The translations under genes and the position numbers were made by a program. The notes beneath the pieces are model-generated. The model was given only the letters and a program-made list of their open reading frames with translations. It did no database searches and was not told the origin of the DNA. A DNA stretch of 33,407 nucleotides from an uncultured Candidatus Saccharibacteria bacterium (GTDB taxonomy: Bacteria; Patescibacteriota; Minisyncoccia; UBA6257; UBA9933), in NCBI GenBank assembly GCA_964362385.1, contig CAYIEH010000004.1, positions 1 to 33,407 on the forward strand. The letters run 5' to 3'. Below are positions 1,186 to 21,926 of the stretch, piece after piece (within the stretch, counting starts at the first letter, position 1; each line of letters starts with the position of its first letter).

Positions 1186-1305
1186 ATGAATAAAATAATT
1201 TTAGAAATCCGCGCTGGAGCGGGCCGCCTTCATAGAATTATGGCGAGCCTCGCCCCTGCCTCTTTATTAATTTATTATTTAACTAAACATCATGGAAAAT
1301 ATTAA
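1186..1305 (+). pseudogene. 39-codon upstream ORF whose first 13 residues ([13 protein letters not shown]) duplicate the N-terminus of the downstream prfA
   Basis: Translated by hand. The peptide matches prfA residues 5-17 ([12 protein letters not shown]) but uses different synonymous codons. It diverges at a GC-rich palindrome (1242-1256) and overlaps the prfA ATG out of frame. Confidence 0.4.
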
Positions 1306-2029
1306 TAAAGTTATTCTTGAAATAAGGGCAGGGGCGGGCGGAGACGAAGCTTCTATTTTTGCCGGAGATTTGGCGCGGATGTACCAAAAATACGCCGCCA
1401 AGCGCGGATGGAAATTCAATATCGTTGACTTCAATCAAACTTCTCTTGAGGGATATAAAACTTTAATAGCCGAACTTGAAGGCGAAAGCGTTTATGAAGA
1501 TTTAAAACAGGAATTCGGCGTTCACAGAATCCAAAGAATTCCCAAAACAGAAAAATCCGGCAGAATCCACACTTCCACCACTTCAGTCGCCGTTATCCCG
1601 GAAGTTGAAGCGAAAGAAATCCAAATAAACCCAAGCGATTTGGAAATTTCTTTTTTCCGTTCTTCCGGAGCCGGCGGCCAAAACGTCAACAAGGTTGAAA
1701 CCGCCGTCAGAATCGTCCATAAGCCGACCGGAGTCATTGCCGCTTCCCAGGCAGGCCGCTCGCAATACGCCAACCGCGAAACCGCGATGAATATGCTTCG
1801 CGCCAGATTATATGAACAAAAACAACTGGAAGAACAAATAAAAATCGGCGCCTTAAGAAAAGAACAAATCGGCACCGCGGACCGCTCCGAAAAAATCAGA
1901 ACTTACAATTTTCCGGATGATAGAATCACCGACCACCGCCTAGGTAAAAAATTTCATAATATTGAACGTATTCTTGACGGGGATCTGGATCCGATAATTA
2001 AATCTTTTAAAAACAGCGATAAAAAATAG
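1292..2029 (+). CDS. prfA: peptide chain release factor 1, N-terminally short form (domains 2-4 only)
   Basis: GGQ motif ([23 protein letters not shown]). RF1-type PxT tripeptide in [17 protein letters not shown]. Starts at the [12 protein letters not shown] block, which lies about 105 residues into E. coli RF1. Confidence 0.85.
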
Positions 2030-8997: not shown

Positions 8998-9194
8998 TCT
9001 TTTCTCCTTTCTGCTCCTGTTAGATAGTTAATAAGATATTTTATCTTGAAACTTGTAAAAAAATCTACCCCTAAATTATCATTAATAATATAATTTGTCC
9101 AGTAAATTATTCTTCTACAGAAAACATTGATACTCGAGGATTATTCCCGAACCATTCAGTATTTAGCAGCTGTATCTTAAAACCAAAAGGCGCC

Positions 9195-9232
9195 AATAAA
9201 AAATCCCTGCTAGCCTAAAAAGGCAAGCAGGG
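9195..9232 (-). terminator. intrinsic terminator after the DnaB-like gene
   Basis: Stem CCCTGCTAGCC/GGCAAGCAGGG (9205-9215 / 9222-9232, one mismatch), followed on the minus strand by ATTTTTTATT. Confidence 0.6.
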
Positions 9233-9250
9233 TTATTATAAAACTCAATT

Positions 9251-10555
9251 TCAGTTGTCCCTCCAATTACACAAATGTCCGTAGAACTTCGCATCCACTA
9301 TGACTGCCGGTCCGCCTTTGGCAATTATAATCTTGCCATTTTGAGGCGCTCCATTGGCAGAAGTCTTTTCATGATAATCTTCCCGGTGAAGCAGAAAAAC
9401 CATGTCAGCCAAATCTTCTATATTGCCGCTGTCTTTAAGATCGGATAAACGCGGCAAGCTGTCTTTTTCTTCTTCAGAAGTGCGATTAATTTGGCTTGAT
9501 GCCGACGTCGGCGTTTTAACTTCATTAACGCACCCGCGCAAGGCCTCGAGAATTTTATCCATGCTCTCTTTTTTCGTACGGCACTTTTCCGGCCAATTCA
9601 AATCCTGAAGATTCTCAATTACTATTAATCCCAGCTCTCCGATTTTGCCGCGTAGCGCTTTTATTCCGGAAATTATTGAAAACACATTCATAGAACTCTC
9701 AAATTTCACATGGAGTTTGGATTCATTGATTTTCTGGTGGGCTTTTCTGACTTTTTCCATTTCCTTTGCCGACACCTTTCCCCGTTTAAGGTCGTTGAAA
9801 TCAATTTCGCACATGGCTGAGAGTAATCTGAGAAAAATAGTTTCTTTAGTATGATTAGATGATCCGAAATAAACCGCCGGAAAACCGTCTTCAATGCAAA
9901 TTTTTCTCAAAAAGCTCAACTGCATTGCCGTCTTACCCATACCGGCTCTTCCGCCGATTATGGTTAAGTTTTTGGCAGGAAAACCCGCAATATATTTATT
10001 CAAACACTCTAATGGAGTTTCCTTGAAATAGGCAATGTGATCCGTCAAATTCTCTTCGCTCACTGACATACGGCCAACTTCTTCAGAACCGCACCGGCTT
10101 GAAATTTGCCTTAGCGCTTCTTGGCTTTTAAAAAGCAAAAGAGGTAAATCTTCGGCTTCTTCATAAACCATTTGCGCTATCTTGATTGAATTTTGAAGTA
10201 ATTTCCTGAGAAGCGATTTTTCTTTAACGATCTTCGCGTGGTATTTTACATTAGCTGACGTGGGAATGGTCTCGGCGAGCATACTAACATACTGTTCTCC
10301 TCCGATCATTTCCAAATCTCCGTTATTAATCAGTTTATCCGCTAAAGTAATAATGTCGGCTTCCTTTCCTTCTGCTGCGAGTTCCAAAATCGCGGCATAA
10401 ATCTTTCGGTGGTTTTCACGGTAAAAATCATCAGTCACCAAAATTTCTTTAGCAACCTGAATCGCGACTCCATCCAAAATCATAGCTCCTAAGACCGACT
10501 GCTCTGCTTCAAGATTTTGGGGCGGCAGCTTTTCCAAATGTTCTATTTTTTTCAT
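9251..10555 (-). CDS. DnaB-family helicase homolog with degenerate catalytic motifs, RT-associated
   Basis: N-terminal LPPQNLEAEQSVLGAMILD, Walker A GGRAGMGKT, SQINR, LSDLKDSGNIEDLAD. However FSLEM is FGSSN, IDYLQL is IENLQD, and KQRNGP is K-GGP. I start it at the ATG at 10555, which has SD AAAGGAGA and overlaps the RT stop as ATGA; the ORF-track start is 10609. Confidence 0.8.
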   Translation of the reverse strand: MKKIEHLEKLPPQNLEAEQSVLGAMILDGVAIQVAKEILVTDDFYRENHRKIYAAILELAAEGKEADIITLADKLINNGDLEMIGGEQYVSMLAETIPTSANVKYHAKIVKEKSLLRKLLQNSIKIAQMVYEEAEDLPLLLFKSQEALRQISSRCGSEEVGRMSVSEENLTDHIAYFKETPLECLNKYIAGFPAKNLTIIGGRAGMGKTAMQLSFLRKICIEDGFPAVYFGSSNHTKETIFLRLLSAMCEIDFNDLKRGKVSAKEMEKVRKAHQKINESKLHVKFESSMNVFSIISGIKALRGKIGELGLIVIENLQDLNWPEKCRTKKESMDKILEALRGCVNEVKTPTSASSQINRTSEEEKDSLPRLSDLKDSGNIEDLADMVFLLHREDYHEKTSANGAPQNGKIIIAKGGPAVIVDAKFYGHLCNWRDN

Positions 10556-11559
10556 CTCGTCTCCTTTGCCTGATATTCCAGCCATGGCTGCAAAAGCCAC
10601 TTCGGCCAATTGTTTTCATTGCCATAGATGCATCTTATGGCATTAACTCTTCCCAGTACTTCGCCACGAGAATACGTTCCATATCTGATTGCCGCATACA
10701 TTATTCTCCTATATTCTTTTTTCTTGCGGCGGCAAATATGAATTTTATCATTGACCACAGTTAACCCAAGCGCGTGGGGAATCGTTTTCCCTAAATTATC
10801 CTTGGTTTTTTCTGATTTAATGCTGAAACCGAACTTGGCCGGAATACTCAACAGCTCTTGTTTTACTTCAGAAACAATTATTTCTCCGGCGAAATTAAAG
10901 TCATCAACATAAACCGCCCAAAAAATATTATTTTTCCTGCACACAACATCAATCTCTTCACACATTGGTCTGTAAACCAGATTCAGCAGGATAGGACTCG
11001 CAGATGCGCCTTGGGGCAATCTTCGCTGGCCGTGGTAATAATAAGTCAAAAACCAGGCCAATGATTTTGCCACAGATTCATCAATCCCCAATCTCGCCAA
11101 AGTTTTCTCCACGTATTCTTCTTTAATACTGGGAAAAGCTTGGGCAATGTCAAAAGCAAAAAAATGCTTCTTGCCTAAAAGTCTTTGTATGGCTTTTTTT
11201 GAATTCCTCTCCCTTACGAAACCGTACGCATTATCGTGAGCTGAAAACTTTGAGTCCAACCAATCTTTAACGGCGCGATAAACTTTTTGCACTTCGGGAT
11301 GCGGTTGTAGAATTTCCCGTTCTTTGTTTTTTTCCCGCAAAAAGAAAATTCTAAAGCCGTAATAAAAAGTCGCTTTCACGGTTTTGCCTTTTTTAAAAAG
11401 CTCTGCCGTTGTTTTTGCAGATTTCAAAATCCTGAAAGCTTTGCGGATTTGCTTTTTAGGCAGTCCGATTAATCCTGAAAGAACTCCCAAAGTCCAAAGA
11501 AACCGAACTTGGGGAGAAACCGCTGACAACTTTTCTGGCGCTTCAGTTTCTTTAGACAT
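10552..11559 (-). CDS. retron-type reverse transcriptase
   Basis: 335 aa. Motifs: FYYGFRIFFLREKNKEREILQPHPEVQKV, AYGFVRERN, FAFDIAQAFPSI, LPQGASASPILLNL, YVDDFNFAG (YVDD at 10900-10911), GFSIKSEKTK, and retron-like LGLTVVNDKIHICRRKKKEYR. No maturase, endonuclease or other fused domain. SD GGAG lies 6 nt before the ATG. Confidence 0.85.
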   Translation of the reverse strand: MSKETEAPEKLSAVSPQVRFLWTLGVLSGLIGLPKKQIRKAFRILKSAKTTAELFKKGKTVKATFYYGFRIFFLREKNKEREILQPHPEVQKVYRAVKDWLDSKFSAHDNAYGFVRERNSKKAIQRLLGKKHFFAFDIAQAFPSIKEEYVEKTLARLGIDESVAKSLAWFLTYYYHGQRRLPQGASASPILLNLVYRPMCEEIDVVCRKNNIFWAVYVDDFNFAGEIIVSEVKQELLSIPAKFGFSIKSEKTKDNLGKTIPHALGLTVVNDKIHICRRKKKEYRRIMYAAIRYGTYSRGEVLGRVNAIRCIYGNENNWPKWLLQPWLEYQAKETR

Positions 11560-11600
11560 TAATGTCTCCTTTCACTTGGCATTTTGATTTTTAAAAGAAA

Positions 11601-11836
11601 TTGCAGGCAGACTTGGCTGGAATTGAAGCCCCTTTAATAAATCACCAGATTCGAGGTGCGCATCGTTAACGTAAGGAAAAGCCAATGCAACCTCGGGGGT
11701 CATTGTAGGGGGTGTCCCCCTACATTCTGTTACTGACATTTGATCCGCCGTCCGATTCAGAAAGCGGGTTTGAGACCTATTACTCGTGGCTATACCAGAG
11801 TCTTTTAGTCTCTCCTTACTGCCAGTCTGCCTGCAA
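11601..11836 (-). ncRNA. candidate retron-like ncRNA (msr-msd-like) closed by terminal inverted repeats
   Basis: TTGCAGGCAGACT(T)GGC at 11601-11617 is the reverse complement of 11821-11836. Internal perfect GC hairpin TGTAGGGG-GTGT-CCCCTACA (11704-11724). Second stem GAGGTGC/GCA(A)CCTC (11653-11696). Sits 42 nt upstream of the RT ATG and directly downstream of a promoter. Confidence 0.5.
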
Positions 11837-11848
11837 TCTTCTGCTTTT

Positions 11849-11877
11849 TTTATACAGATAAACATAAGCAATGTCAA
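11849..11877 (-). promoter_or_regulatory. sigma70-like promoter TTGACA-17-TATAAA driving the ncRNA/RT operon
   Basis: Minus strand: -35 at 11877-11872, -10 at 11854-11849, 12 nt before the first inverted-repeat arm. Confidence 0.5.
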
Positions 11878-21574: not shown

Positions 21575-21926
21575 GGGAGCGCAAGTTTCGACAATGATTT
21601 GATTAAGAAAATCGCAAGCCGAGGATGATTTCTCACCTCGTTAATCAAGGAATCAAAAACATAACTGCCAACAGAAATGTTGCTCCCGCTTTAGCTTTTG
21701 CTTAAAGCGGCATCCCATGCTAATCGCTTAAGTTAGCAGTACGGGGTGTTATACATTAAGCTTGTTTGCTAAATTGCCAAAGTTTAGCAAAGACAAAATT
21801 TTGGCAAAGATTTTTGAAGATTTTGCTTAATTCTTACTTCTTAAATCTTACATCCGAATTAAGCTAAGCTTGTAGAAATTTTCTTGAGAAATCGTTGGAC
21901 GAGGGTTCAATCCCTCCGCTTCCACC
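21575..21926 (+). ncRNA. ssrA: tmRNA
   Basis: 5' GGGAGCG pairs with 3' CGCTTCC, including the G3:U wobble. UUCGAC box. GCCGAGG...CCUCGU pseudoknot-1-type pairing. Tag reading frame 21667-21705 encodes ANRNVAPALAFA-stop. T-arm GAGGGTTCAATCCCTC, then ACC. Lies immediately downstream of smpB. Confidence 0.9.

What the first reader, a model, noticed from the sequence alone, without database searches (positions are those of the whole stretch)
9251..10555. DnaB homolog keeps its fold and Walker A but appears to have lost catalytic residues
Seen, by ungapped eye alignment to E. coli DnaB motifs recalled from memory:
- Walker A is intact: GRAGMGKT (9929-9943).
- Exactly 21 residues later, FSLEM (catalytic Glu) reads FGSSN (9854-9868).
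- Walker B, LIMIDYLQL, reads LIVIENLQD (9602-9619).
- SQLNR and SDLRESGSIEQDAD are kept, as SQINR and SDLKDSGNIEDLAD.
- The arginine-finger segment GKQRNGP reads AK-GGP, with no Arg (9305-9322).
- The N-terminal primase-interaction domain is present.
Inference: this is probably an ATP-binding but poorly hydrolysing or non-translocating DnaB paralog. That suits a sensor, an effector or an ssDNA (msDNA) clamp better than the replicative helicase.
Basis: partly seen in the sequence, partly recalled or inferred. Interest (0 to 1): 0.75.

Follow-up and report, generated by a model that had tools for sequence, protein, structure and literature searches.

The report
Dead DnaB helicase paired with retron
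This gene is a full-length copy of the bacterial replication helicase DnaB that has kept its ATP-binding loop but lost its arginine finger and other catalytic residues; it is always fused into an operon with a retron-type reverse transcriptase and a structured RNA, so it is most likely the accessory or effector protein of a previously unclassified retron, not the cell's replication helicase.

Summary
On the minus strand, 9251-10555 encodes a 434-aa protein with both DnaB domains and a DnaB fold. Walker A is intact. The catalytic Glu is replaced (FSLEM -> FGSSN), Walker B Asp is Glu (IENLQ), and the arginine-finger dipeptide QR is deleted (AKQRNGP -> AK--GGP).

These changes are not private to this gene. 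They define a small clade of about 28 sequences (roughly 18 clusters at 50% identity among 1.84 billion proteins). All 28 carry the arginine-finger deletion, and 27 of 28 carry the D->E change.

In every locus where upstream sequence is available (about 19 distinct loci), the gene sits directly after a 327-358-aa reverse transcriptase (RT), overlapping or abutting it. In the window the overlap is ATGA. The RT's closest structures are all retron RTs.

Upstream of the RT lies a conserved ~250-nt ncRNA. It has a promoter, a1/a2-type closing inverted repeats and covarying hairpins.

The hosts are mostly Patescibacteria (CPR); the window comes from a Parcubacteria-like groundwater genome. The flanks are housekeeping genes that differ between loci.

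My best reading is a retron-type ncRNA + RT + ATPase-degenerate DnaB ring system. The exact role of the ring (replication poison, msDNA clamp or decoy) is inferred. I could not test whether a canonical dnaB exists in the same genome.

The parts
11849..11877 (-). Promoter-like site: TTGACA (11877-11872), 17-nt spacer, TATAAA (11854-11849). It sits just upstream of the ncRNA 5' arm and just downstream of a hairpin plus T-run that follows the YqeY-like gene.
   Evidence: Read directly from the sequence. The consensus scan does not list it because it requires T at position 6 of the -10 hexamer.
11595..11842 (-). Retron-type ncRNA (candidate msr-msd), about 250 nt. Features: 5' arm a1 at 11824-11842; 3' arm a2 at 11595-11613 (14 of 14 exact, 19 bp with one mismatch, 210 nt apart); conserved hairpin CGCUUUCUGAAUCGGACGGCG at 11746-11766; conserved hairpin GUAGGGGGACACCCCCUAC at 11704-11724 followed by ACCCC; a variable 3' hairpin region.
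   Evidence: Inverted repeat: with 0 of 40 shuffles reaching its score. Whole RNA folds at -101.6 kcal/mol, z = -6.97. The two sequence motifs occur once per locus, always 200-330 nt upstream of the RT on its strand, in every related locus with enough upstream sequence except L001, which carries a variant; there was one weak stray match in 335 kb. RNAalifold on 13 loci gave 24 pairs, 13 with compensatory changes. No Rfam family matches.
10552..11559 (-). Retron-type reverse transcriptase, 335 aa, with YVDD catalytic box and a conserved ~85-aa N-terminal extension.
   Evidence: Pfam RVT_1 61 bits. NCBIfam retron_St85_RT 112 bits, below its 235-bit cut-off. PADLOC retron RT models 72-138 bits, best RT_III-A, with no clear type. 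AF2 pLDDT 91.4; the top 18 Foldseek PDB hits are all retron RTs (Ec83, Ec86, Eco7, Ec78, Eco2, Eco8), ahead of group II intron RTs. The family is sharply bounded: 61 clusters at 342-558 bits, then a drop to 153 bits.
9251..10555 (-). DnaB-derived protein, 434 aa: N-terminal DnaB domain, linker, and RecA-like C-terminal domain with a degenerate active site. Its start codon overlaps the RT stop codon (ATGA).
9929..9952 (-). Walker A / P-loop GRAGMGKT, intact.
   Evidence: GK[TS] is kept in 27 of 28 clade members.
9854..9868 (-). H1a motif FGSSN in place of FSLEM: the catalytic Glu is absent.
   Evidence: Glu is kept in only 6 of 28 clade members; 6 have Gln and the rest have N, S, A, R, H or T.
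9602..9619 (-). Walker B IENLQD in place of IDYLQL (Asp->Glu, Tyr->Asn).
   Evidence: Glu in 27 of 28 and Asn in 28 of 28 clade members.
9404..9496 (-). H3 SQINR (9482-9496) and H4 / DNA-binding-loop segment SDLKDSGNIEDLAD (9404-9445), largely kept.
9305..9322 (-). AK--GGPA: a 2-residue deletion that removes the arginine finger of AKQRNGP. The adjacent Lys (K413) is invariant.
   Evidence: The deletion is present in 28 of 28 clade members and absent from all 8 canonical controls aligned with them; the K-x-R-x-G pattern was also found in 238 canonical sequences.

Best explanation
The region 9251-11877 (minus strand) is one transcription unit: a promoter, a structured ~250-nt ncRNA closed by a1/a2 inverted repeats, a retron-type reverse transcriptase (RT), and, translationally coupled to it, a DnaB-derived protein. 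It is a retron-type three-component system whose accessory or effector protein is a replicative-helicase paralog.

This paralog keeps the DnaB N-terminal collar domain, the linker, the RecA fold, the P-loop and most of the ssDNA-binding loop. It has lost the trans arginine finger, in most members the catalytic glutamate, and the canonical Walker B aspartate.

Shown here: the anatomy, its conservation, the co-evolution of the two genes and the linkage between them.

Inferred: the protein still forms a ring and binds NTP, and probably ssDNA, but cannot couple hydrolysis around the ring. It therefore does not translocate.

Most likely mechanism (inferred by analogy with characterised retrons, from my own knowledge of Ec86/Eco1, Sen2, Ec78/Ec83 and Eco8):
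1. The RT makes msDNA from the ncRNA.
2. The RT-msDNA complex holds the dead helicase ring in an inert state, plausibly with the single-stranded msDNA bound in its channel.
3. A phage-dependent disturbance of the msDNA or RT releases the ring.
4. The released ring blocks DNA replication as a dominant-negative DnaB. It could form mixed, stalled hexamers, or titrate primase or the helicase loader through its intact N-terminal domain. The result is growth arrest or abortive infection.

The gene is not the cell's replicative helicase.
For: - Active-site changes are real and conserved across the clade.
- The clade is discrete. In a profile search of 1.84 billion representatives, the 14 top hits (603 down to 362 bits) all carry the signature, and three or four more lie within the canonical plateau that starts near 357 bits.
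- The RT lies directly upstream in every locus with upstream sequence, about 19 distinct loci. Across 12 of them the intergenic distance runs from -50 to +22 nt; in the window it is an ATGA overlap.
- RT and DnaB-like pairwise identities co-vary (Mantel r 0.84, 0 of 5000 permutations).
- The RT is retron-type by HMM and by structure (top 18 PDB hits are retron RTs).
- The ncRNA shows conserved motifs found only upstream of the RT, 13 of 24 pairs with compensatory changes, a1/a2 arms that differ in sequence between loci but stay complementary, and a fold z-score of -6.97.
- Accessory character: detected in only 5 of 185,579 GTDB species representatives, in Parcubacteria, Patescibacteria, Moraniibacteriota, an Aminicenantes MAG and a Bdellovibrionales MAG. 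Flanking housekeeping genes differ between loci.
- TIGR00665 score is below its cut-off.
Against: - No msDNA, ATPase, helicase or phage-defence data exist for any member.
- No canonical dnaB was found in the same genome, because the rest of the genome could not be read.
- The module is not in a defence island. It sits among housekeeping genes, and PADLOC has no model matching the DnaB-like protein.
- It is absent from IMG/VR viral contigs, so no phage link is documented.
- Six of 28 members keep the catalytic Glu, Walker B Glu can still bind Mg2+, and the invariant Lys next to the deletion could serve as a RecA-like trans lysine. Residual ATPase activity is therefore possible.
- The a1/a2 repeat is individually significant in only about 8 of 13 loci.
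- The retron hallmark motifs NAxxH and VTG are kept only at their most conserved residues (H132, G265).
Confidence: 0.68

Rival explanations
1. Decoy or guard model. The dead DnaB mimics the host helicase and acts as the sensor. Phage proteins that hijack or inhibit DnaB (lambda-P-like loaders, helicase inhibitors) bind it. That binding switches on the RT-msDNA part, or the ring-msDNA complex as a whole, which acts as the effector.
For: - The N-terminal domain and overall DnaB surface are strongly conserved while catalysis is dispensable. This is the pattern expected of a binding decoy.
- The fold matches DnaB in complexes with loaders and with lambda P (9oa1, 6bbm, 8a3v).
- Other retrons sense phage replication or recombination proteins. 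PDB titles show Retron Eco8 bound to SSB. That Ec48 guards RecBCD is from my own knowledge.
Against: - There is no third protein in the operon to act as a toxin; only the RT and the DnaB-like gene are conserved.
- No RT-only toxic retron output is known.
- Nothing here distinguishes a sensor role from an effector role.
Confidence: 0.15
2. It is the organism's genuine, and possibly only, replicative helicase with an unusual active site. Ultra-small CPR genomes evolve fast, and the Lys next to the deletion plus the Walker B Glu could still support hydrolysis. On this view the adjacency to the RT is incidental or regulatory.
For: - Full-length DnaB architecture with an intact P-loop and a conserved N-terminal domain.
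- Housekeeping neighbourhood.
- No other dnaB in the 33-kb window or in about 300 kb of related loci.
- Six of 28 members keep the catalytic Glu.
Against: - The clade was detected in only 5 of 185,579 species representatives, scattered over unrelated lineages, while its nearest CPR relatives lack it.
- It is never found without the retron RT and ncRNA, and it co-evolves with them.
- The arginine finger is deleted in all members, and the score is below the TIGR00665 equivalog cut-off.
- Every one of the 238 canonical DnaBs recognised by pattern in the sampled set keeps the Asp and Arg. Their taxonomy was not determined.
Confidence: 0.05
3. A non-defence retroelement module. The RT plus ring protein would serve the maintenance or replication of some DNA, such as cDNA-primed replication restart or an episome, or a CPR-specific housekeeping function. 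The DnaB-like ring would act as a passive clamp or loader platform.
For: - Embedded among core genes rather than in defence islands, with no integrase or repeats bounding the module.
- Enriched in episymbiotic CPR bacteria with reduced genomes.
Against: - The anatomy (a1/a2-closed ncRNA, retron-fold RT, one downstream accessory gene) is that of retrons, all of which, where tested, act in phage defence (own knowledge).
- The patchy, HGT-like distribution argues against a core function.
Confidence: 0.1

Closest known systems
Bacterial replicative helicase DnaB (e.g. G. stearothermophilus DnaB 2r6a/4esv, E. coli DnaB 6bbm/7t20)
   Same: - Same two-domain architecture and fold. Sequence match E 1.9e-64, about 31% identity. 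The top 50 Foldseek hits are all DnaB.
- Conserved N-terminal domain signature (PPQ..EAE..LG), linker, P-loop, SQxxR, and most of the H4 loop.
   Different: - Arginine finger deleted, catalytic Glu replaced, Walker B DY changed to EN, and the linker motif changed to RETP.
- Below the TIGR00665 cut-off.
- Always co-encoded with an RT and an ncRNA.
- Rare and patchy rather than universal.
Retrons, the 13 types of Mestre et al. 2020 (PMC7736814), e.g. Ec86/Eco1, Sen2, Ec78/Ec83, Eco8
   Same: - Order is promoter, then ncRNA closed by a1/a2 inverted repeats with internal hairpins, then RT, then one accessory gene.
- The RT fold is closest to solved retron RTs.
- Retron RT HMMs are the best hits.
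   Different: - The accessory protein is a DnaB derivative. The 2020 classification never mentions DnaB or a helicase.
- The RT matches no defined type well: 138 bits at best, and below NCBIfam cut-offs.
- NAxxH and VTG are reduced to the conserved H and G.
- Hosts are mainly Patescibacteria.
- msDNA has not been demonstrated.
'TXI_noncan_h' type XI-like retron lineage with DnaB_C neighbours (bioRxiv 10.64898/2026.05.14.725207, May 2026)
   Same: - A stand-alone retron-like RT with a DnaB_C-containing protein, mostly at the +1 position.
- A candidate a1/a2-flanked ncRNA a few tens of nt upstream of the RT.
- Function stated as unknown.
   Different: - That lineage is reported from Bacillota and Bacteroidota, and the paper never mentions Patescibacteria.
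- The RTs here score higher on the PADLOC type III-A, VI and II-A models than on type XI.
- The preprint does not report loss of catalytic residues in the DnaB_C protein.
- No sequences were available to test whether the two lineages are the same.
ATPase-defective, dominant-negative DnaB mutants and catalytically inactive RecA-fold paralogs (own knowledge, not tested here)
   Same: A ring-forming RecA-fold protein with an intact P-loop but crippled hydrolysis. Such engineered DnaB mutants poison wild-type helicase in mixed hexamers.
   Different: This one is a naturally evolved, conserved lineage tied to a reverse transcriptase, not a laboratory mutant.

Membership tests
DnaB replicative helicase (TIGR00665 / PF00772 + PF03796) | N-terminal DnaB domain plus C-terminal RecA-like DnaB_C domain, DnaB fold | tested here: met
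   Pfam 112 and 163 bits. PDB phmmer E 1.9e-64. AF2 model with Foldseek top 50 hits all DnaB.
DnaB replicative helicase (TIGR00665 / PF00772 + PF03796) | Walker A P-loop GxxxxGK[TS] | tested here: met
   GRAGMGKT.
DnaB replicative helicase (TIGR00665 / PF00772 + PF03796) | Catalytic Glu of motif H1a (FSLEM) | tested here: not met
   FGSSNH in the window. Glu is kept in only 6 of 28 clade members.
DnaB replicative helicase (TIGR00665 / PF00772 + PF03796) | Walker B Asp (hhhhDYLQ) | tested here: not met
   VIENLQ. Glu in 27 of 28 clade members. Asp is present in all 238 canonical sequences recognised by pattern.
DnaB replicative helicase (TIGR00665 / PF00772 + PF03796) | Trans-acting arginine finger (K-Q-R-N-G) | tested here: not met
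   AK--GGP. The two-residue deletion is present in 28 of 28 clade members.
DnaB replicative helicase (TIGR00665 / PF00772 + PF03796) | Score at or above the curated equivalog cut-off | tested here: not met
   TIGR00665 scores 284 bits against a cut-off of 385. All other NCBIfam DnaB equivalogs are also below their cut-offs.
DnaB replicative helicase (TIGR00665 / PF00772 + PF03796) | Is the genome's replicative helicase (single essential copy; ATPase and 5'-3' unwinding) | not testable with these tools
No biochemistry is available.
Retron | RT of the retron class | tested here: met
   The best HMM hits are retron RT models. The top 18 structural hits are solved retron RTs. All scores are below type-specific cut-offs.
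Retron | Region X NAxxH and region Y VTG motifs (Mestre 2020) | tested here: inconclusive
   Only the most conserved residues are kept: H132 is invariant before RT3 (xxKH) and G265 is invariant in RT7 (LGL instead of VTG). The motifs were placed by eye.
Retron | Contiguous ncRNA (msr-msd) upstream of the RT, closed by a1/a2 inverted repeats, with msr hairpins and an msd hairpin | tested here: met
   The a1/a2 arms are individually significant in about 8 of 13 loci. Thirteen of 24 internal pairs covary.
Retron | Produces branched msDNA primed from a conserved G | not testable with these tools
   A conserved G(G/A)CA follows a1 in all loci, but branching cannot be shown in silico.
Retron | Specifically associated accessory or effector gene | tested here: met
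   The DnaB-like gene is at +1 in all of about 19 distinct loci and co-evolves with the RT.
Retron | Anti-phage or toxin-antitoxin function | not testable with these tools
   No experimental data. No PADLOC model matches the effector.
TXI_noncan_h (type XI-like RT + DnaB_C; 2026 preprint) | RT branches within the type XI-like clade | tested here: inconclusive
   PADLOC RT-Protease_XI 99 bits versus RT_III-A 138 bits. No reference sequences of the lineage were available for a tree.
TXI_noncan_h (type XI-like RT + DnaB_C; 2026 preprint) | DnaB_C protein encoded next to the RT, mostly at +1 | tested here: met
TXI_noncan_h (type XI-like RT + DnaB_C; 2026 preprint) | Hosts are Bacillota or Bacteroidota | tested here: not met
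   Hosts here are Patescibacteria, plus single Aminicenantes and Bdellovibrionales MAGs. The preprint does not mention Patescibacteria.

The most novel reading that the evidence does not exclude
This is a new retron type, found mainly in ultra-small CPR/Patescibacteria. Its effector is a domesticated, catalytically dead replicative helicase: a DnaB ring held on or by msDNA. On phage attack the ring is released to jam the replisome, or it acts as a decoy for phage helicase-hijacking proteins. It would be the first immune or toxin system built from an inactivated DnaB, and a natural example of an arginine-finger-less hexameric helicase under purifying selection.
Probability: 0.4. Interest if true: 0.8.

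Novelty: new variant of a known kind. Interest (0 to 1): 0.66.

Why it matters
If correct, this adds a new effector class to retrons: an inactivated replicative helicase. It also extends retrons into Patescibacteria, whose tiny genomes carry few recognised defence systems.

It gives helicase biochemists a naturally selected DnaB lineage in which the arginine finger is deleted in all members and the catalytic glutamate has been lost repeatedly. This separates ring assembly, NTP binding and DNA binding from translocation.

It makes one question directly testable: whether msDNA can act as a ligand threaded through a helicase ring.

The compact, well-defined ncRNA-RT pair, with strongly conserved RNA motifs, could also interest retron-based genome-editing work.

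A May 2026 preprint noted an RT-DnaB_C association in other phyla and called its significance unclear. The active-site degeneration documented here offers a concrete hypothesis for it.

Tried and rejected
- **Second dnaB in the same genome.** I could not test this. The first GTDB scan, with narrow clade patterns, found nothing. The metagenome scan found a member on a 597-kb contig, but only +/-8 kb is readable. tblastn with a canonical DnaB found no second copy in the window or in about 300 kb of fetched loci, which says little.
- **Empty-site test.** I looked at the closest ArgRS relative on a 134-kb contig. Gene order there is not conserved, so no empty site could be scored.
- **Rfam.** No family matches the upstream RNA.
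- **PADLOC.** No defence model matches the DnaB-like protein, the 101-aa ORF or the 260-aa neighbour.
- **Viral contigs.** No member in IMG/VR, so a phage-borne module is not supported.
- **Cluster names.** Clade proteins carry no informative names.
- **Preprint supplements.** They gave no sequences or accessions that would let me test identity with TXI_noncan_h.
- **Nearest outgroup RTs.** P0452 and P0454, at 26-28% identity, have other or unknown downstream genes. The DnaB link therefore appears confined to this RT family.
- **The 101-aa ORF 11572-11877.** Rejected as a gene, because it lies inside the conserved ncRNA.
- **The TTG start at 10609.** Rejected in favour of ATG 10555, which has an SD sequence, the ATGA coupling, and matches homolog N-termini.
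- **Consensus promoter scan.** It missed the TTGACA-17-TATAAA site because of its T6 rule.
Full report
**1. What is at the coordinates.** The minus strand of 9251-10609 holds one long ORF. Its real start is the ATG at 10555. That ATG is preceded by AAAGGAG and overlaps the stop codon of the upstream gene as ATGA. The N-termini of homologs also begin there.

The 434-aa product has the following matches:
- Pfam DnaB N-terminal domain (112 bits) and DnaB_C (163 bits).
- Best solved-structure match by sequence: G. stearothermophilus DnaB 2r6a, E 1.9e-64.
- AlphaFold2 model with mean pLDDT 82.5; its 50 best Foldseek matches in the PDB are all DnaB helicases.

It scores 284 bits on the NCBIfam equivalog TIGR00665, whose cut-off is 385, and it is below the cut-off of every other DnaB equivalog.

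| Motif | Canonical | Window | Coordinates |
|---|---|---|---|
| Walker A | ARPSVGKT-type | GRAGMGKT, intact | 9929-9952 |
| H1a (catalytic Glu) | FSLEMS | FGSSNH, no acidic residue at or beside the Glu | 9854-9868 |
| Walker B | IDYLQL | IENLQD | 9602-9619 |
| H3 | SQLNR | SQINR | 9482-9496 |
| H4 / DNA loop | DLRESGAIEQDAD | DLKDSGNIEDLAD | 9404-9445 |
| Arg finger | AKQRNGP | AK--GGP, 2-residue deletion | 9305-9322 |

The only nuance is that Asp->Glu at Walker B is chemically conservative.

**3. It is a clade, not a one-off.**
- The first homolog search gave ten relatives at 38-54% identity, followed by a plateau of canonical DnaBs at about 35%.
- A profile of the clade searched against 1.84 billion representatives gave a top block from 603 down to 362 bits, ahead of the canonical plateau near 355 bits.
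- Simple motif classification of all 270 fetched DnaB-family proteins separated 27 sequences, plus two variants, with (I/V)EN(L/I)Q and no Arg. The remaining 238 have D-[YFHW]-x-[QGTS] and K-x-R-x-G.

In the 28-sequence motif table:
- the QR deletion is present in 28 of 28;
- Walker B Glu in 27 of 28, and the following Asn in 28 of 28;
- GK[TS] of the P-loop is kept in 27 of 28;
- the catalytic Glu is kept in only 6 of 28, with 6 having Gln and the rest N, S, A, R, H or T;
- SQxxR is mostly kept;
- the DNA-loop RESG reads K-x-(S/T)-G in most.

The pattern is an intact nucleotide-binding loop, an arginine-finger deletion shared by every member, and a catalytic base lost repeatedly. That fits a protein selected to bind nucleotide, and possibly DNA, but not to hydrolyse cooperatively. 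The Lys just before the deletion (K413) is invariant. It could in principle act in trans as the lysines of RecA do (my own knowledge), so 'inactive' remains an inference.

**4. The neighbourhood gives the explanation.** The gene immediately upstream (10552-11559, minus strand) is a 335-aa reverse transcriptase (RT).
- Pfam RVT_1.
- Best NCBIfam hit retron_St85_RT at 112 bits, below its cut-off.
- PADLOC retron RT models at 72-138 bits, best RT_III-A, with no clear type.
- AF2 model pLDDT 91.4. Its 18 best PDB matches are all retron RTs (Ec83, Ec86, Eco7, Ec78, Eco2, Eco8), ahead of group II intron RTs and DRTs.

I looked up the contigs of eight different clade members and then scanned GTDB genomes and JGI metagenomes. 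tblastn shows the RT directly upstream of the DnaB-like gene in every locus that has upstream sequence, about 19 distinct loci. The intergenic distance ranges from -50 to +22 nt.

The RT is better conserved than the helicase-like protein: mean pairwise identity 50% against 38%. The two identity matrices are strongly correlated (Mantel r = 0.84, 0 of 5000 permutations).

The RT family is sharply bounded. Sixty-one 90%-identity clusters score 342-558 bits, after which the scores drop to 153 bits. The nearest outgroup RTs have other or unknown downstream genes.

**5. The RNA.** Every locus has 450-650 nt of non-coding DNA upstream of the RT. In the window this contains, in order:
- a TTGACA-17 nt-TATAAA promoter-like site (11877-11849);
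- a 5' arm AGAAGAUUGCAGGCAGACU (11842-11824);
- 210 nt further on, its complement (11613-11595), ending 35 nt before the RT start codon.

No shuffle of the region reaches this helix score (0 of 40). The 252-nt RNA folds at -101.6 kcal/mol, z = -6.97, with the two arms closing the structure.

Equivalent arms occur in the other loci with different sequences but preserved complementarity, for example AUUGCAGGUAGA, UUGCGGGUAGA, AGCGGGUAAAU, UAAUCAGCGAGUGACU and AGAAGAGCGCGGGC. They are individually significant in about 8 of 13 loci.

Inside the arms, two sequence elements are nearly invariant between loci whose proteins are only 30-55% identical: CGCUUUCUGAnnCGGACGGCG, and a C(N)GGGGACACCCC(N)G hairpin followed by ACCCC. 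They occur once per locus, always 200-330 nt upstream of the RT on its strand, with one weak stray match in 335 kb.

RNAalifold on 13 loci predicts 24 pairs, of which 13 show compensatory double changes. Rfam has no matching family.

This is the anatomy of a retron msr-msd transcript as defined by Mestre et al. 2020. The RT keeps the most conserved residues of the retron NAxxH and VTG motifs (H132, G265) but not the full motifs. The 101-aa ORF at 11572-11877 lies inside this RNA and is spurious.

**6. Host and distribution.**
- The window is a chromosomal fragment full of core genes: EF-Tu, ArgRS, HisRS, LepB, Pth, FolD, YchF, fructose-bisphosphate aldolase, L25, a tmRNA and others.
- Its ArgRS is closest to Patescibacteria sequences named Wolfebacteria, Harrisonbacteria or 'Patescibacteria group', at 52-64% identity.
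- A contig from Hainich groundwater (well H43, 0.1 µm fraction) carries the same module, with an RT identical in protein sequence and a DnaB-like protein 99.5% identical.
- Among 185,579 GTDB species representatives, the clade-specific pattern was confirmed in only five: Parcubacteria group, Patescibacteria group, Moraniibacteriota, and single Aminicenantes and Bdellovibrionales MAGs. Named RT relatives are from Moranbacteria and Aminicenantes.
- None was found on IMG/VR viral contigs.
- The flanking genes are housekeeping genes and differ from locus to locus. No integrase or bounding repeats are consistently present.

The module is therefore rare, patchy, and probably horizontally transferred. 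That is hard to reconcile with it being the essential helicase of its hosts.

**7. Mechanism.**

Shown: an operon of ncRNA, retron-type RT and a DnaB-fold protein with an intact P-loop and a degenerate catalytic site. The parts are strictly linked and co-evolving.

Inferred:
- The protein still assembles like DnaB, because the N-terminal collar domain and linker are conserved.
- It binds NTP and probably ssDNA.
- It cannot run the sequential hydrolysis that drives translocation.

By analogy with characterised retrons (my own knowledge), RT-msDNA keeps an effector inactive until a phage disturbs it. The most economical model has msDNA-RT sequestering the ring, possibly with the single-stranded msDNA lying in its channel. 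Release would then let the ring poison replication as a dominant-negative DnaB, either through mixed hexamers or by titrating primase or the loader. The outcome would be growth arrest or abortive infection.

Rival readings:
- Decoy or sensor for phage proteins that target DnaB. This is attractive because binding surfaces are conserved while catalysis is not, but it leaves the system without an obvious toxin.
- A non-defence, CPR-specific role.
- The genuine replicative helicase with an odd active site. This is unlikely given the distribution, the linkage, and the deletion being present in all members.

**8. Relation to what is known.**
- The 2020 retron classification and the UG/Abi and RT reviews never mention DnaB.
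- PADLOC 2023 has no model for the protein.
- A May 2026 preprint (10.64898/2026.05.14.725207) describes 29 'TXI_noncan_h' loci in Bacillota and Bacteroidota. There a protease-less type XI-like RT has a DnaB_C protein, mostly at +1, and a candidate upstream ncRNA. The authors call the significance of the association unclear.
- The present family shares that gene order. It differs in host phylum, since the preprint never mentions Patescibacteria, and in HMM affinity, since types III-A, VI and II-A score above XI.
- The preprint reports nothing about the catalytic residues.
- Whether the two are one lineage or two independent captures of DnaB could not be tested, because no sequences were available.

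I therefore class the finding as a new variant of a known kind: a retron with a new, DnaB-derived, catalytically degenerate effector.

**9. Limits.**
- No experiment supports msDNA synthesis, ATPase loss, toxicity or defence.
- The clade census depends on short peptide patterns and is a lower bound.
- The two non-CPR MAG assignments may be binning errors.

Noticed in passing
window 11572-11877 (-): A 101-aa ORF with no Pfam or PADLOC hit lies entirely inside the conserved retron-type ncRNA. It is almost certainly not a gene, and annotation pipelines may call it as one.
   Followed up: yes
window 21575-21926 (+): tmRNA gene with tag peptide ANRNVAPALAFA (ARAGORN).
   Followed up: no
window 1187-2029 (+): The release-factor ORF (1292-2029) is only 245 aa and starts at position 100 of the PCRF profile. 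A short upstream reading frame at 1187-1235 repeats its first residues ([13 protein letters not shown]...) and then stops. This could be a truncated or duplicated 5' end, or an unusual short RF.
   Followed up: partly
window 10552-11559 (-), RT residues 1-85: The RT carries a conserved N-terminal extension (invariant W22, K35, K36; AF2 predicts two helices and a four-stranded sheet) ahead of the fingers. Its function is unknown; it could bind the ncRNA or the DnaB-like protein.
   Followed up: no
L014 (JADHWO010000107.1) and L016 (CAYTIK010000019.1): The same ncRNA-RT-DnaB-like module occurs in MAGs labelled Candidatus Aminicenantes and Bdellovibrionales, outside Patescibacteria. This is either horizontal transfer or mis-binning.
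   Followed up: no
L001 2624-2941: This locus has a second a1-like copy (ATTGCAGGGAGATC at 2762) inside the ncRNA. It can also pair with the a2 arm, so there are alternative closing helices. Its CGCTTTCTGA motif is a variant (CGCTTGCTGAAACAGCTGGCG).
   Followed up: no
contig of P0452 (ENA ERZ1426824, no DNA held): The nearest outgroup RT (28% identity) also sits among CPR-like housekeeping genes. It is followed by a 404-aa ORF with no Pfam record, possibly a still more divergent partner protein.
   Followed up: partly
window 8998-9250: A 253-nt non-coding gap lies between the DnaB-like stop codon and the start of the downstream OMP-decarboxylase-like gene. No terminator-like site was called on the minus strand there.
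   Followed up: no
L025 (Ga0209417_1000008, 597 kb) and contig of P0447 (656 kb): The module lies on very long contigs that are probably near-complete CPR genomes. These are the best places to look for a second, canonical dnaB.
   Followed up: no
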